From: Octopus sinensis
Lineage: Eukaryota
Assembly (NCBI RefSeq): GCF_006345805.1
Contig: NW_021836302.1
Span: 3,743 to 67,742, forward strand
Length of the DNA stretch: 64,000 nt
Direction of reading: 5' to 3'
Below, in pieces: positions 3,001 to 45,000 of the stretch. Numbering within the stretch: position 1 is the first letter of the stretch; each line of letters opens with the position of its first letter. A program made the position numbers.

Positions 3001-6000
3001 TTTGGATGGTAAGTGAGCCGGACCCTTAACAAGTGGGACAAAGGTACAGCGGTATTTCGTCTGTCTTTATGATCTGAGTTTAAATTCAGCCAAGGTCGAC
3101 TTTGCTTTTCCTCCTTTCGGGGCCGATAATGTTAGTACCAGTTGAACACTGGGGTCGCTGTTATCGGTTTGCCACCTCCACTAGAAAACTGCTGGCCTTG
3201 CGCCAAATTTTGAAATCATAATAAATTTTCTCCTTCACTCCATTATCCGTAAATGGAATATAACCGTTCGCGTTGCTTCCTTCCTTCTTTCCACTCCATA
3301 TTGTTACCTATTTCTTGATAATTATCTTCTTTCAATGTTTCGAAATATCCTTTCGTGGAATAAATCAATCTGCAGCCTACAACCAACCATTTAAATGTAC
3401 ATCTTCATGCACACACACACACACACACACACACACACACACACACACACACACACACACACACACACACACACACACACATACACACACAATATATACA
3501 TCTATATACATATACACATATATACATCCATATACTTACACATATATATGTATGTATGTAGAGCTCCTCACGAAACGTTAAGTCCTCCTTCTTTCTCTCC
3601 TTTCCTGGGCGTCCAATAACACGATACTTGTTCCACGTCTCCCTTGCATATAGTTAATAACACTATACTTGTTCCACGTCCTCTTTTTGTTCATGTTTGG
3701 ATTAACTGTATATATATAAGCGCCCCAAAGGTCAATCACAAAAAAAGATAGATGGCATGTCAGACCTCGACTACTGGGGTAGACTAGAAAAGCTGAAACT
3801 GTATTCACTCCAACGACGCCGTGAACGCTACATTATCTGTATGATGTAGAAAATATTTCATCAGCACTGTCCGAATAATGTTGGCATCACCTTCAAAATA
3901 CATCCAAGGCTTGGACCACGTGCCATCCGTCCACAACAAAAATCTAAATCGCATCTCATAACAACAATACGGCACAACTATTTCACCTCAATTGGACCCG
4001 CTCTCTTCAACATTACACCGGGGCACGTCAAAACAGAAACTGACCACACAAAATTCAAGAAATCTTTGGACAAATTCCTTCAAACAGTCCCGGACAAACC
4101 ACCCACACCCGGATATGTCTCCGCAAACAATAACTCTCTGCTCGAATGGGCCTTGGTGCCCAAATCCTGGTGGTGCTATTAAGTTAGACATGGCCTGGGC
4201 CGATACTGGCCGAAACCTTTCTAAGTTATTCTAAGTTATTATATATATATATATATATATATATATATATATATATATATATATATTATACAAATTAGAG
4301 ACAAAACCACTATTATGCAAATCAAACAAAGAAAGACTTAATCCAATACATAAACTAATTTATATTATTTAGTAATTTAACAATTATTAATATCCACTAC
4401 GATCGTTTCATGTCTTCTTTTCATCACATCTTTGAGTAGTAGACGTTCTTCAGGTGGTTTCAAATATTCTTGGCGAATTTAAACTATGAACTAATTTTTA
4501 TTAATAATTGTTAAATTACTAAATAATATAAATTAAGTTATGTATTGGATTAAGTCTTTCTTTGTTTGATTTGCATAATAGTGGTTTTGTCTCTAATATG
4601 TATAATATAATATTTTACTATAAATTGGATTCAATCCTAAATCTGATTTTTCCTGTAAGTTTGGATTTATTCCCTAATATTATATATATATATATATATA
4701 TATATATATATATATATATATATATATATATATATATATATATATATATATATATATATATGTATATATGCATATATATGTATAATATATATATGTAAGT
4801 CATTATTTACTTTTATTTCAAGATTACTTGCCGATACAGAAAGAGTCGATTTCTAACCTAGATCCAAAGCTCCTTCATTAGAATTTCAACATCAACAGGG
4901 TATATTTGTATGTATATATATATATGTGCAGAATTGTGTGATTAGTTTTATGCATGTCGTTTTTCAGCTTTATTTCAAGATTTCTTGCCAATAGAGAAAG
5001 AACTGGTTTCTAACCTAGATCCAAGGCTTCTTCATTGGAATTTCAACATCAACAACAGGGTATCTTTGTTTGTTTGTATGTATGTATGTATGTATGTATG
5101 TATGTATGTATGTATGTATGTATGTATGTATGTATGTATGTATGTATGTATGTGTGTGTAGATTTGTATGTTTTATGTATGCATTCTCATGCATATATTT
5201 GCATATCTAGACATGCTCATACATATTTAAATGATAAACTTCTGGAAAGTTTTACAGATTTTTACAGTTCCAGTGATGGATTGGATCTCTAGTTTTCGAA
5301 TTAGCTTTCTCCTTTTTGATTTTCAGAAGCCTAATTTCTCAAGATTAGTATTTTGGCAGTGTGTTACATATCATAGGGCCCCAATAACTACAGGTATAAA
5401 CCTGAACCTATAATCTGGATAGAGTAACTGCATATTTATCAATAGTTGAGCGTAGGTGTTCTCATGTATGTATGTATGTATGTATGTATGTATGTATGTA
5501 TGTATGTATGTATGTATGTATGTATGATATATATATATATATTAATATAAACAGCAGGCTGCAATGTTTCATAAAAAGGAGAATCATAATTATCAGTAAA
5601 TGTGACTAGGGTGTTAAGAAACACCTACATTAAAAGGAAGAGCTAAAATGCTCTAATGCTGTAGTTAACGCACAGGAATGAACACATATACACTAACAAG
5701 GAACTGAATCGTCCGAAAAATGCTGATCGAGAATTCTTAATACTGACGTCAGTTTCGGCAATTTCCGCTGCCTCATCAGTTAAGCCTGGTCGATCTTCGG
5801 CGTTTTCCGGACTCGCTTCTCTAGCAGCACACACACACACACACACACACACACACACACACACACACACACACACACACACACACACACACACACACAC
5901 ACACACACGCACACACACATACACACACACACACACACACACACACACACATATACGTATGTAACTATATGCAAGGGAGATGTACAGCCAAGCTTGTAAG

Positions 6001-42000: not shown

Positions 42001-45000
42001 TATATATATATATATATATATATATATAATTTCAGCAACAATTTAGATTCAAATGAATATGGTACTTAATTTAGATGCACCAGAATTTTTGTATGGTGTC
42101 ATCCATAAAAATTTGCGGGGTGATTATAATAAAAAATAAGCAACAAGAATGATTCTGGTAATTTGGTACAATTGTTTCGCACTACATCATTTTATTAAAA
42201 GTTGTATGTATTACAGCAGATTTAAGATGCTGAGTGCTCATTAGCCAAATATATAGGTTTTCCAATAATACAAAAGGCTTTCAAATCAAGTAGTAACATT
42301 ATAGAGAAGGTAGATATACAGATAAAGATGTAGATTTAAATTTTAAGAACATATGAGGTTGTGAAGTCCAGCCACTGACTGACCACGCTATATCTGTATC
42401 TGACTGCTATAAGAATAGAAGTAATAAAGATTTTTTAGTTGTAGGAATGGGGTAAGGGAGGTTTCAGAATACCATAAAAGGAATTCAAGTTGCCACTAAC
42501 AAAATGCCAATTACTGCTATTTGGTGAGAGGAACTAGGTCAATGTCAAAATCTTTATTACTTCTATTCTTATAGCAGTCAGATACAGCTATAGCGTGGTC
42601 AGTCATGGCTGGACTTCACAACCTCATATGTTCTTAAAATTTAAATCTACATCTTTATCTGTATATCTACCTTCTCTATAATGTTACTACTTGATTTGAA
42701 AGCCTTTGTATTATTGGAAAACCTATATATTTGGCTGATGAGCACTCAGCATCTTAAATCTGCTGTAATACTTACAACTTTTAATAAAATGATGTAGTGC
42801 GAAATTACCAGTCATTCTTGTTGCTTATTTTTTATTATATATATATATATATATATATATATCAACAATTGAGGGTAAAATTAATTAATTAATCAATTTC
42901 ACCAAGTGTTCAGTATGTAAAAGGACCATTTAAGGCGAATTCAAAATATTACATTATATAATTAGGGCTTAGTAAAATAAATTACTTTGCCACATACTGA
43001 ACTTAGTAGAAATAGCAGCCAAAAAAATTTTCTTAGCATTTCTACTACTTAAAGAAAATTTCTCTCAGATAATGTTTACTCTAGACAGCTCACGAAGGTT
43101 TGGGGGTAAATACAGAACAATATCACAAGTACATAGAACGTTGACGTACTCAAACGATCTATGTACTTGTGATATTTTTCTGTATTTACCCCCAAACCTT
43201 CGTGAGCTGTCTAGAGTAAACATTATCTGAGAGAAATTTTCTTTAAGTAGTAGAAATGGTAAGAAAAATTTTTTTGGCTGCTATTTCTACTAACTTCAGT
43301 ATGTGGCAAAGTAATTTATTTTACTAAGCCCTAATTATATAATTATATATATATATAATATATATATATGTATGTTTGTATATATATATATATATATATA
43401 TATATAATATATATATATATATACATACATTTATATATATATATATATATATATATAATATATATATATATACATATACACATATATGTATATATGCATA
43501 TATGTCTGTATGTGTGTGTGTGTGTCCGTATAAACGTGTGTGTGTGTGTACGAAAAGAAAAATAAACGAATTAGCATGAGCGAAAGAGGGTAATGCTTAT
43601 AACTATGCCGTAACTGTCAGTCTTTCACCATTTTTCTCTTCGATGCTACCCGTTTTCCACAGGAGGGATGGAGAGTTGGACCCGGAATCTTTTTTCTATG
43701 CATTATCCCAGGATGATTATGAATTTAAATAAAAATAATGGAAAAAAAAAAATCGTTGAGAAATGGTGACATTGTTTCAAGACAAACATGAACACTTAGA
43801 CATGCAATTGTACTTGTTAATCCCACGCTAATCTCTTATTAAGCGGATTTATAGCGAGATGCTTTGCAAACGTGACCATCCCCATTCTTTTATTTTCCAG
43901 CTGTGTGCTATTCAGTTCCAGATTATCTAATGTGTGTTACGCCCTTTGTTATATCGGTAGACTGTGACTTGAGGGAGATGTGATTGTTATTTCCAGCTGA
44001 TTGAAGCATCACATAGACGTATCTAAGCTGGCTGGCAATACCTATTTGTACGTTTATGTGGGCGAGAAAACAACTCTGGAAAGAAGCAACTCTTTTATTA
44101 TTTCAAAATGGTTATTGATCTAGACATTCGTCTCTTTAATCTCAGGCGTGAGCGCCAACTTACCTACTTCACCATACAGACACGTAGAATATACATACTT
44201 CACTAGAGAGACATGAATCACTCTTATGTATACATTCTTGAAAGTACGATTTTATTTTAGCATTTGATTATTTATTACGACTTTGTTTTTCACTTCGTTG
44301 CAAATTGTTCATAATTCTATTAAGAATATCATTTTCCCCAAGGTTCCTTGAGCTCTCAACCTGTCAAGAGCTGATCCTACATCATATTTTCATAACTGAA
44401 GTGTTTGAACTGGTACTATCAGGAGTCAAATCTCGTTACGTTTTTTTTCTTGTATATGTCGTTTCATTATTTAAAATTTTAACATTATGTTTATTGACAA
44501 AGGCTTGAAAAAGTAAATATTACATACGTGTTTCAAATTGTTAATGTTCCCATAACTTTATTGTTACACATTAAAAACAACCAATGGGCGCAGCCGGTTT
44601 GTTTAAGAATTTCGTTTCAGATCTGCTTGGATTCGGACAGATTCCACTGTGTGGGATCTTGGGCAAGTGTCTTCTACCGCAGCTTCGGGTTAACCAATGT
44701 CTTGGGAGCAGAATTTGGTTGACAAGAGCTGTGCTGATATCTATCACATATGAGCACGCTTTCGCTTTTCATTATTTGAATTGTGACACTGAGGTATTTC
44801 ACCGACATCCTTGTCCCTTTTCTGCCTCATTTAGACCTCAAGTATATCATCATTGATACAGTTTGCCTAAGGTGTAATGCAGGGGCAGTACTAATTTCAG
44901 ATTTCTGTTCCTGCCATGCTGCATCCAGGTTAACTTCATTCTTTCGCACCAGAATTTTACCCCGAACGAATCCCCATCCTCTTAGGAAGAGAAGGTGTGT

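What the first reader, a model, noticed from the sequence alone, without database searches (positions are those of the whole stretch)
4288..43343. Recurring (TA)n - tail - arm - loop - inverted arm - (TA)n architecture
Seen: fold-backs at 4288, 28780, 37590, 42030 and 42863 plus mini versions at 23605 and 32678. Each larger one has a 75-160 bp unique tail on one side only, so these are not symmetric TIR MITEs. Within a family the inverted arm ends at the same point (ctctaat at 4597 and 39061; gggcttag at 23612 and 43331) while the inner junction varies. Established: PLE insertions can have an inverted pseudo-LTR and a tail extension. Inference: a fixed second priming site and snap-back synthesis make inversion the usual product.
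Basis: partly seen in the sequence, partly recalled or inferred. Interest (0 to 1): 0.8.

Follow-up and report, generated by a model that had tools for sequence, protein, structure and literature searches.

The report
Truncated Penelope-like retroelements inside (TA)n repeats
The fold-backs are real, but they are the already described insertion scar of Penelope-like retroelements: two truncated copies lying head-to-head inside a (TA)n microsatellite, with an extra tail on one copy only.

Summary
Five fold-backs (A1 4277-4676, D 28780-29705, A2 37581-39078, C 42030-42838, B1 42863-43350) have arms 87-98% alike. Each carries a unique 63-140 nt tail on one side only and sits in (TA)n. Families A and B recur with the same outer ends.

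The arms of families A, C and D carry a Penelope-type minimal hammerhead motif pointing to the outer end. A strict descriptor gives 3 hits, all in arms, against 0.035 expected. Rfam sees no hammerhead in them.

Head-to-head truncated copies, a one-sided tail, AT-rich or (TA)n targets and pLTR hammerheads are all published Penelope-like element (PLE) features. In vitro work explains the tail by two reverse-transcription start sites and shows extension of both DNA strands.

In A1 the loop belongs to the untailed copy, and B2 keeps both fixed ends with no palindrome.

No PLE reverse transcriptase or GIY-YIG domain lies in the window. No frame stays open from hammerhead to tail, so these are decayed or non-autonomous copies.

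Verdict: new members of a known kind, modest interest.

The parts
4282..4498 (-). A1, untailed (longer) copy: about 217 nt of the family A 3' end, including the fold-back 'loop' 4393-4498
   Evidence: Colinear with the A2 sense sequence through the loop. Arm 4277-4392 pairs with 4499-4613 at 96.6%.
4398..4453 (-). A1 hammerhead-like motif: CUGAAGA, 6-bp stem II, GAAAC-GAUC-GUA, 4-bp helix I
   Evidence: Strict descriptor hit. Sequence shown. Rfam found no hammerhead here.
4499..4613 (+). A1, tailed (shorter) inverted copy, 111-115 nt
4614..4676 (+). A1 tail, 63 nt, followed by (TA)n 4677-4794
   Evidence: Homologous to the A2 tail: 4495-4793 matches 37782-37479 at 87.5%. (TA)n.
23612..23663 (-). 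B2: last ~52 nt of the family B 3' end (untailed copy)
   Evidence: 23593-23663 matches 42946-43016 / 43350-43280 at 90.3%.
23665..23727 (+). B2: outer 62 nt of the B tail, truncated on its inner side, with no inverted arm
   Evidence: 23665-23740 matches 42921-42850 at 92.1%, inverted.
28780..28919 (-). D tail, 140 nt
   Evidence: Unique sequence between (CA)n/(TA) and the palindrome start.
28920..29283 (-). D tailed inverted copy, with a degenerate hammerhead at 28998-29037 (core CCGAUGA)
29337..29693 (+). D untailed copy, with a hammerhead-like motif at 29583-29622 (CUGAUGA ... GAAAC-AGCU-GUA)
   Evidence: Strict descriptor hit. The arms are 87.2% alike.
32678..32830 (.). Doubtful mini element: about 15-nt arms starting with gggcttag, and about 90 nt of one-sided sequence
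   Evidence: Sequence read. No significant match to B1; weak self-inverse match at 69%.
37581..37660 (-). A2 tail, 80 nt
37661..37991 (-). A2 tailed inverted copy, with a hammerhead-like motif at 37802-37859
   Evidence: Arms 96.1% alike. Relaxed descriptor hit.
37992..38746 (.). A2 loop, 755 nt. Its owner copy is undetermined. It holds a 65-nt match (78%) to the LINE 3' end at 4174-4237
38747..39069 (+). A2 untailed copy, with a hammerhead-like motif at 38879-38936 (CUGAUGA, 8-bp stem II, GAAAC-GAUC-GUA)
   Evidence: Strict descriptor hit.
42030..42124 (-). C tail, 95 nt
42125..42434 (-). C tailed inverted copy. Hammerhead-like motif at 42167-42244 with core CUAAUGA, intact GAAAC-AAUU-GUA and a 6-bp helix I
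42547..42838 (+). C untailed copy. The CUGAUGA core at 42735 is intact, but a 13-nt deletion removes helix III
42863..42945 (-). B1 tail, 83 nt
42946..43335 (.). B1 palindrome: tailed copy 42946-43142, 10-nt loop, untailed copy 43153-43335. No hammerhead found in its ~190-nt arms
5545..5826 (-). Related single copy (family H): canonical hammerhead at 5741-5779, and 3' end abutting (AT)n
   Evidence: Relaxed descriptor hit. Rfam Hammerhead_3 at 17.9 bits, E 0.26, below the gathering score of 48.5. Sequence.
54805..55020 (-). Related single copy (family G): hammerhead-like motif at 54977-55010 with a 6-bp helix I. It ends at a short (AT) run
   Evidence: Rfam found none.
56983..57183 (.). Family G fold-back with symmetric ends and no (TA)n flanks. 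This is the one exception to the one-tail pattern
   Evidence: Self-inverse at 82.2%. Outer ends shown.

Best explanation
Each fold-back is one insertion of a hammerhead-bearing PLE, or of a non-autonomous element moved by one, into a (TA)n microsatellite.

Shown: an insertion consists of two 5'-truncated copies of the element's 3' region lying head-to-head. Their 3' ends face outwards and their variable truncation points meet in the middle. One copy ends at a downstream point and so carries the 63-140 nt tail. The other ends further upstream, at a TA-rich patch.

Inferred from the published in vitro behaviour of a Poseidon PLE: the element's protein cuts both strands of AT-rich DNA. Each freed 3' end primes reverse transcription at one of two fixed internal start sites on the RNA. 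The two cDNAs are then joined in the middle by host repair or by template switching.

My own inference: the upstream start site coincides with a UA-rich patch that can pair with the (TA)n primer.
For: 1. Architecture. Five fold-backs have one-sided tails in (TA)n. 12 of 14 ends lie next to (TA)>=5, against a 9.9% background.

2. Mobile families. A1/A2 and B1/B2 sit at unlinked places with the same outer ends on both sides and different inner junctions. The arms of one element are closer to each other (96-97%) than A1 is to A2 (80-87.5%). So each palindrome arose at its own insertion.

3. Hammerhead motifs.
- The strict descriptor gave 3 hits, all inside arms (A1, A2, D). 200 dinucleotide shuffles gave a mean of 0.035 and a maximum of 1.
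- The relaxed descriptor adds the A2 left arm and the single copies G and H. It gave 8 rows at 4 loci, against a shuffle mean of 0.13 rows.
- The two arms of C each carry one different defect in an otherwise complete motif.
- The helices differ in sequence between families but still pair. Helix I is CCAC/GUGG in A, AUUUGG/CCAAAU in C, CUUAA/UUAAG in H and CACACG/CGUGUG in G. Stem II shows UCU/AGA in A1 against UGU/ACA in A2.
- The helix III loop is a 4-nt palindrome in A, C, D and H.
- Every motif reads towards the outer 3' end, 42-195 nt away.

4. Literature.
- Inverted 5'-truncated copy, one-sided tail and (TA)n bias (PMC8557442, passages).
- Minimal hammerheads in pLTRs, pairs 100-700 bp apart on opposite strands, and a small palindromic helix III in shrimp and fly PLEs (PMC4209133, parts 1-2).
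- Both strands cut and extended, two RT start sites, tail lying between them, hammerhead about 90 nt upstream of the starts (PMC11167929, parts 1-2).

5. Against snap-back and for two initiations: the A1 loop belongs to the untailed copy, and B2 has no inverted overlap.
Against: - No PLE reverse transcriptase or GIY-YIG domain was found. Pfam was run on 142 of the 153 ORFs of 70 aa or more; I dropped 11 by eye as microsatellite translations. Family membership therefore rests on non-coding features.
- Rfam found no hammerhead at gathering score anywhere in the window. It found none at E<=10 in A1, C or G. Only the separate copy H gave a sub-threshold Hammerhead_3 match.
- My descriptor was written after I had seen the motifs by eye, so the shuffle test is not fully independent.
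- Family B arms show no hammerhead.
- D has a weak helix I (2 bp) and a mismatched closing pair in stem II.
- All three frames carry stops between hammerhead and tail end. In the two characterised PLEs the ORF starts at the hammerhead.
- The tails are 63-140 nt, against the published 30-40 nt.
- The upstream end lies in a TA-rich patch, whereas the published start sites are not homologous to the target.
- B2 could also be a later central deletion of a palindrome.
Confidence: 0.8

Rival explanations
1. Same elements, different mechanism. A single cDNA folds back on itself (self-priming or snap-back), so the second arm is a copy of the first.
For: Arkhipova et al. 2013 proposed self-priming from palindromes at inverted junctions (PMC3846280, passages). 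B1 has only 10 nt between its arms and D has 53, which suits a hairpin turn.
Against: The A1 loop (106 nt) is colinear with the untailed copy: score 39, against 12 for the other orientation and a shuffle maximum of 23.5. A tail-primed cDNA that folds back would leave the loop with the tailed copy, and an untailed cDNA cannot generate a tail by copying itself. B2 has both fixed ends but no inverted overlap. The loops of 106, 112 and 755 nt in A1, C and A2 are long for a hairpin turn. Extension of both strands has been shown in vitro.
Confidence: 0.12
2. Foldback or MITE-type DNA transposons, or Helitron/Helentron derivatives, that prefer TA or AT targets.
For: They have long inverted arms, TA-rich flanks and no coding capacity. 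A true long-TIR element, E at 14979-16877, does exist in the same window.
Against: The tail makes the termini unlike each other, and tail versus arm end shows no significant similarity (p 0.05-0.98 over 10 comparisons). The inner junction varies while both outer ends stay fixed, which is the pattern of 5' truncation. Hammerhead motifs point outwards in both arms. Element E, by contrast, has no tail and no hammerhead, and its left flank is unique DNA.
Confidence: 0.03
3. Local palindromic duplications made by replication or repair accidents at cruciform-forming (TA)n, not mobile elements.
For: Long (TA)n tracts are themselves palindromic and fragile, and every case here sits in one.
Against: Families A and B recur at unlinked sites with the same ends and the same tails. 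Three unrelated families share the same ribozyme motif in the same orientation.
Confidence: 0.03
4. Assembly artefact: chimeric fold-back reads collapsed at (TA)n.
For: Published work notes that palindromes beside low-complexity DNA often trouble assemblies of PLEs (PMC8557442).
Against: The arms differ by 2-13%, and by a 13-nt indel in C. An artefactual fold-back would be near-identical. The one-sided tails are shared between independent copies.
Confidence: 0.02

Closest known systems
Endonuclease-positive Penelope-like elements with hammerhead-bearing pLTRs (Penelope/Poseidon, Neptune, Nematis, Hydra clades)
   Same: Head-to-head inverted 5'-truncated copies, a tail on one copy only, an AT-rich or (TA)n target, and a type-I minimal hammerhead with a small palindromic helix III upstream of the 3' end.
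   Different: There is no RT/EN ORF here, and no open frame from hammerhead to tail. The tails are 63-140 nt rather than 30-40. The upstream end lies in a TA-rich patch, whereas the Poseidon start sites are reported as not homologous to the target. The clade cannot be assigned without a reverse transcriptase.
Naiad PLEs
   Same: Strong (TA)n insertion bias, inverted truncated copies and a one-sided tail.
   Different: Naiads are reported to lack canonical hammerheads. Families A, C and D carry hammerhead-like motifs.
Metazoan retrozymes (non-autonomous hammerhead repeats thought to be moved by PLEs)
   Same: Short, non-coding, hammerhead-bearing and probably trans-mobilised. I saw only the abstract and search listing of PMC7229834.
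   Different: From the abstract and my own recall, retrozymes are described as tandem direct repeats that give circular RNAs. Here the copies are inverted pairs and no tandem direct units were found.
L1 twin priming
   Same: Both strands of the target prime reverse transcription, which gives an inversion (recalled, not read here).
   Different: In L1 the two cDNAs cover different parts of one RNA, so no palindrome forms. Here both arms copy the same 3' region.

Membership tests
Penelope-like elements (EN+) | PLE-clade reverse transcriptase fused to a GIY-YIG endonuclease | tested here: not met
   Pfam on 142 of the 153 ORFs of 70 aa or more found only LINE-type RVT_1, DDE_3, zf-CCHC and zf-RVT, none of them in the fold-backs. 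This is expected for truncated or non-autonomous copies, so it does not exclude PLE origin. It does mean membership is not proven by protein evidence.
Penelope-like elements (EN+) | Inverted 5'-truncated copy adjoining a forward copy (head-to-head), with fixed 3' ends and variable inner junctions | tested here: met
   Five fold-backs. A1/A2 and B1/B2 share outer ends but differ in inner junctions.
Penelope-like elements (EN+) | Tail extension at the 3' end of only one of the inverted copies | tested here: met
   A one-sided tail in 5 of 5 large (TA)n-embedded fold-backs, and in B2. The tails are 63-140 nt, longer than the published 30-40. P57 is symmetric.
Penelope-like elements (EN+) | Hammerhead ribozyme motif in the pLTR | tested here: inconclusive
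   My descriptors find it in A, D, G and H, with defective versions in C, far above the shuffle expectation. Rfam gives nothing at gathering score and nothing at E<=10 in A1, C or G. Only H scores, at 17.9 bits. None was found in B.
Penelope-like elements (EN+) | Insertion into AT-rich DNA or (TA)n microsatellites | tested here: met
   12 of 14 ends lie within 15 nt of (TA)>=5, against 9.9% of positions.
Penelope-like elements (EN+) | Direct pseudo-LTRs from partial tandem copies | tested here: not met
   The self-comparison found no direct repeats within these elements. The copies are too truncated to show them.
Foldback / MITE DNA transposons | Matching terminal inverted repeats at both extreme ends, plus a target-site duplication | tested here: not met
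   One terminus is the tail, which does not match the other end. A duplication is untestable inside (TA)n.
Retrozymes (metazoan) | Tandem direct repeats, each with a hammerhead | tested here: not met
   Only inverted pairs or single copies were found.
Helitron / Helentron | 5' TC and 3' CTRR ends with a subterminal hairpin, or short asymmetric terminal repeats with a 3' hairpin | tested here: not met
   By reading the ends: B2 lacks the T before CAACAATT, the 3' ends are ...CTAAGCCC and ...CTCTAAT, and the arms are whole-element palindromes, not short subterminal hairpins.

The most novel reading that the evidence does not exclude
The two initiations of one insertion are coupled rather than independent. 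One protein dimer would use each of the two RT start sites once. The upstream, UA-rich site would be primed by a (TA)n end through base pairing and would run ahead. The downstream, tail-giving site would be primed from the other strand and would trail. Every (TA)n insertion would then carry exactly one tail, and the tailed copy would be the shorter one.

In this window 6 of 6 (TA)n-embedded insertions (A1, A2, B1, B2, C, D) have exactly one tail. If each end chose its start site independently, this would happen with probability at most 0.5^6 = 0.016. In A1, the one fold-back where the loop's owner can be read, the tailed copy is the shorter. The only symmetric fold-back (P57) is the one not in (TA)n.

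The in vitro study saw no strand difference in start site, so such coupling would be new.
Probability: 0.2. Interest if true: 0.55.

Novelty: new member of a known kind. Interest (0 to 1): 0.3.

Why it matters
These insertions are a natural in vivo record of how Penelope-like elements integrate, a process that has only recently been reconstituted in vitro. They show fixed alternative 3' ends, priming from both strands, and a (TA)n target in one small region. The window holds at least ten PLE-type fragments.

They may help explain why (TA)n-rich genomes are hard to assemble, since palindromes sit inside low-complexity DNA.

They also offer a simple genome-wide test of whether the two priming events of one insertion are coupled. 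Beyond that, the finding is an instance of known biology.

Tried and rejected
- Rfam at gathering score on the whole window gave nothing.
- Rfam at E<=10 on the whole window gave 344 matches. The 150 listed were microsatellite-type miRNA look-alikes and similar, with no hammerhead. The other 194 were not shown.
- Narrow Rfam scans of A1, C and G found no hammerhead. Only family H gave a sub-threshold Hammerhead_3 match.
- Is the tail a diverged duplicate of the arm end? No. Local alignments in both orientations for 5 elements gave p 0.05-0.98 against 300 shuffles each. My by-eye likeness of the two end motifs in A and B is therefore not supported.
- Is the mini element at 32678 a relative of family B? 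There was no significant blastn match.
- Is there an autonomous PLE in the window? None was found.
- Organism. One protein search with a LINE ORF gave unnamed best hits at 88% and 78% identity. Named hits at 54-59% identity were echinoderms, cnidarians and Penaeus indicus. The organism stays undetermined, and my first guess of a penaeid shrimp is not shown.
- Other large inverted repeats belong to other classes. F (20463-22386) is two tRNA-type SINE copies in opposite orientation. E (14979-16877) has 275-bp terminal repeats, no tail and no hammerhead.
No copy outside the window, no empty allele and no reads could be examined.
- Supplements of the cited papers were not opened. These include the hammerhead alignments, among them shrimp, in PMC4209133 and Figs S1-S2 of PMC11167929. 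They may bear on the motif comparison and on tail lengths.

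
Full report
**The window.** It is AT-rich (26-41% GC per 2 kb) and crowded with microsatellites: 80 TRF rows, about 30 of them TA/AT arrays. It has no N. It holds fragments of LINE reverse transcriptase, a DDE transposase, SINE copies and no clear host gene. The organism could not be named. A LINE ORF found unnamed proteins at 88% and 78% identity, and named ones at 54-59% from echinoderms, cnidarians and Penaeus indicus.

**Checking the observation.**
- A1: arms 4277-4392 / 4499-4613, 96.6%.
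- A2: arms 37661-37991 / 38747-39078, 96.1%.
- B1: 42946-43350, self-inverse at 95.6%.
- C: arms 42175-42434 / 42547-42804, 98.1%, extended to 42125 / 42838 across a 13-nt gap.
- D: 28920-29705, self-inverse at 87.2%.

Each has unique sequence on one side only, between the palindrome and the (TA)n. The lengths are 63 nt (A1), 80 (A2), 83 (B1), 95 (C) and 140 (D). Twelve of 14 element ends lie within 15 nt of a perfect (TA)>=5 run, whereas 9.9% of window positions do.

A1 and A2 are one family in opposite orientations, with homologous tails (87.5%) and the same arm end. B2 at 23605-23727 shares both outer ends with B1. However, it is 62 nt of tail joined to about 52 nt of arm end, with no inverted overlap. 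The element at 32678 has arms of only about 15 nt and no significant match to B. I count it as doubtful.

The arms of one element are much closer to each other than A1 is to A2 (80-87.5%). So each palindrome formed at its own insertion. The 2-13% arm divergence and the indel in C argue against assembly chimeras.

**Other inverted repeats.** Two further large inverted repeats belong to other classes. F (20463-22386) is two copies of a tRNA-type SINE in opposite orientation, with a third copy at 17039-17408. E (14979-16877) has 275-bp terminal repeats at 98.5%, unique DNA on its left, no tail and no ribozyme motif. It is probably a DNA transposon.

**What the arms contain.** Reading the arms, I found the hammerhead core CUGANGA ... 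GAAA, followed by C, a 4-nt palindrome, G and UA, in families A, C and D.
- A strict descriptor required the core, at least 5 stem II pairs and a palindromic helix III loop. It gives 3 hits in the window, all inside arms: 4453-4398 minus, 29583-29622 plus and 38879-38936 plus. In 200 dinucleotide shuffles the mean was 0.035 and the maximum 1.
- A relaxed descriptor adds the A2 left arm and two single copies outside the finding: G (55010-54977 minus, 6-bp helix I) and H (5779-5741 minus, canonical). The shuffle mean was 0.13 rows, against 8 rows at 4 loci.
- The two arms of C carry different single defects. The left arm has CUAAUGA with an intact GAAAC-AAUU-GUA and a 6-bp helix I. The right arm has an intact CUGAUGA, but the 13-nt deletion removes helix III.
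- Helix sequences differ between families yet still pair, and stem II of A1 and A2 differs by a two-sided change (UCU/AGA against UGU/ACA).
- Every motif reads towards the outer 3' end, 42-195 nt away.

**Evidence against the motif.**
- Rfam reports no hammerhead at gathering score.
- It reports none at E<=10 in A1, C or G.
- Only H gets a Hammerhead_3 match, at 17.9 bits and E 0.26, below the 48.5 cut-off.
- B arms have no motif.
- D has a 2-bp helix I.
- I wrote the descriptors after seeing the motif.

Cervera and de la Pena (PMC4209133, parts 1-2 read) report that metazoan PLE hammerheads are minimal variants that standard descriptors miss. They describe a long stem II, a short helix I, an extra nucleotide before stem II and a small palindromic helix III (in shrimps among others). 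They also report pairs 100-700 bp apart on opposite strands. That description fits what is here.

**Comparison with what is known.**
- Craig et al. (PMC8557442, passages) describe PLE insertions as highly 5'-truncated. They often have an inverted 5'-truncated copy at the 5' end, a 30-40 bp tail at one end only, and a (TA)n bias in Naiads and Neptune. Naiads lack canonical hammerheads.
- Arkhipova et al. [quoted passage not shown] They call head-to-head the most frequent arrangement and propose self-priming.
- Frangieh et al. 2024 (PMC11167929, parts 1-2 and passages) show that a purified Poseidon protein cuts and extends both strands of AT-rich DNA. Reverse transcription starts at two adjacent internal RNA sites, the tail is the sequence between them, and the hammerhead lies about 90 nt upstream.

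The architecture in this window is therefore the known PLE insertion scar.

**Mechanism.** The structure itself shows two convergent truncated copies with two alternative fixed 3' ends. I infer that each arm is a separate cDNA primed from one strand of a cut (TA)n, and that the two were joined in the middle.

Two observations speak against snap-back as the general cause.
- The 106-nt loop of A1, read on the minus strand, is colinear with the A2 sense sequence. The local score is 39, against 12 for the other orientation and a shuffle maximum of 23.5. So the loop belongs to the untailed copy. A tail-primed cDNA folding back would leave it with the tailed copy, and an untailed cDNA cannot make a tail by copying itself.
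- B2 keeps both fixed ends without any palindrome. A later central deletion could also produce that.

For A2, B1, C and D the loop's owner cannot be read, so self-priming is not excluded there.

**Differences from the published cases.**
- The tails are two to four times longer.
- In all five (TA)n fold-backs the untailed end merges with the flank through an 8-17 nt TA-rich patch that is also present at the arm-tail junction of the tailed copy. The Poseidon start sites, by contrast, are reported as not homologous to the target.
- All three frames are closed between hammerhead and tail end, and no RT or GIY-YIG domain is present. The copies are therefore decayed or non-autonomous, and their clade cannot be assigned.
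- Six of six (TA)n-embedded insertions have exactly one tail. The one symmetric fold-back, P57 (family G, 56983-57183), is the one not in (TA)n. This hints that the two initiations are coupled, but the sample is tiny.

**Verdict.** The PLE reading and the fixed second start site are supported, and snap-back is not. These are new members of a known kind, not a new kind. Copy-number, empty-site and read-level tests therefore remain open.

Noticed in passing
5545-5826 (minus strand): A single 5'-truncated PLE-type fragment (family H) with the most canonical hammerhead in the window (5741-5779). It lies between (CA)n and (AT)n. It is the only place where Rfam gives a hammerhead match (Hammerhead_3, 17.9 bits, E 0.26).
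   Followed up: partly
54805-55020 (minus strand) and 56983-57183: Family G. One member is a single copy with a hammerhead-like motif (6-bp helix I) that ends at a short (AT) run. The other is a fold-back (P57, arms 82% alike) whose two arms both run about 20 nt further and end symmetrically in non-(TA)n DNA.
   Followed up: partly
13760-13940 and 52175-52359: Two copies (78% alike) of another short family lying against (TA)n. On the minus strand they carry a hammerhead-like stretch with a variant core (CUGU.GA), a 4-bp stem II and GAAAC-GU with no helix III. It could be a minimal variant or a decayed motif.
   Followed up: no
33077-33202: A diverged relic of family D (64% over 128 nt, E 3e-7) with a degenerate hammerhead core (CCGAUGA) and a longer stem II. 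Its inner side abuts (TA)n at 33271.
   Followed up: partly
14979-16877: An element with 275-bp terminal inverted repeats (98.5%) and 1.35 kb between them, including microsatellites. It has unique DNA on the left and (TA)n on the right, with no tail and no ribozyme motif. It is probably a DNA transposon.
   Followed up: partly
17039-17408, 20276-20659, 22195-22386: Three copies of a tRNA-type SINE (86-88% alike). Two of them form an accidental 1.5-kb-spaced inverted pair. Each abuts a microsatellite at its tRNA-like end.
   Followed up: partly
3850-4239 and 38379-38443: A LINE 3' end (its ORF tail has no Pfam match) finishes in two copies of a 10-nt unit directly against the (TA)n that holds A1. 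A 65-nt match at 78% to this same 3' end lies inside the A2 loop.
   Followed up: partly
1-557 and 62627-63176: The two ends of the window share a 93% direct repeat of about 560 nt that covers LINE reverse-transcriptase fragments (RVT_1 at 3-707).
   Followed up: no
3048-3166, 10831-10949, 18653-18769, 32455-32541, 35048-35155: Five copies (76-84% alike) of a short dispersed repeat, probably another SINE.
   Followed up: no
19167-19412 and 40991-41332: Transposase fragments. The first has a DDE_3 match (E 1e-9). The second looks like a mariner/Tc1 type by eye but has no Pfam match.
   Followed up: no
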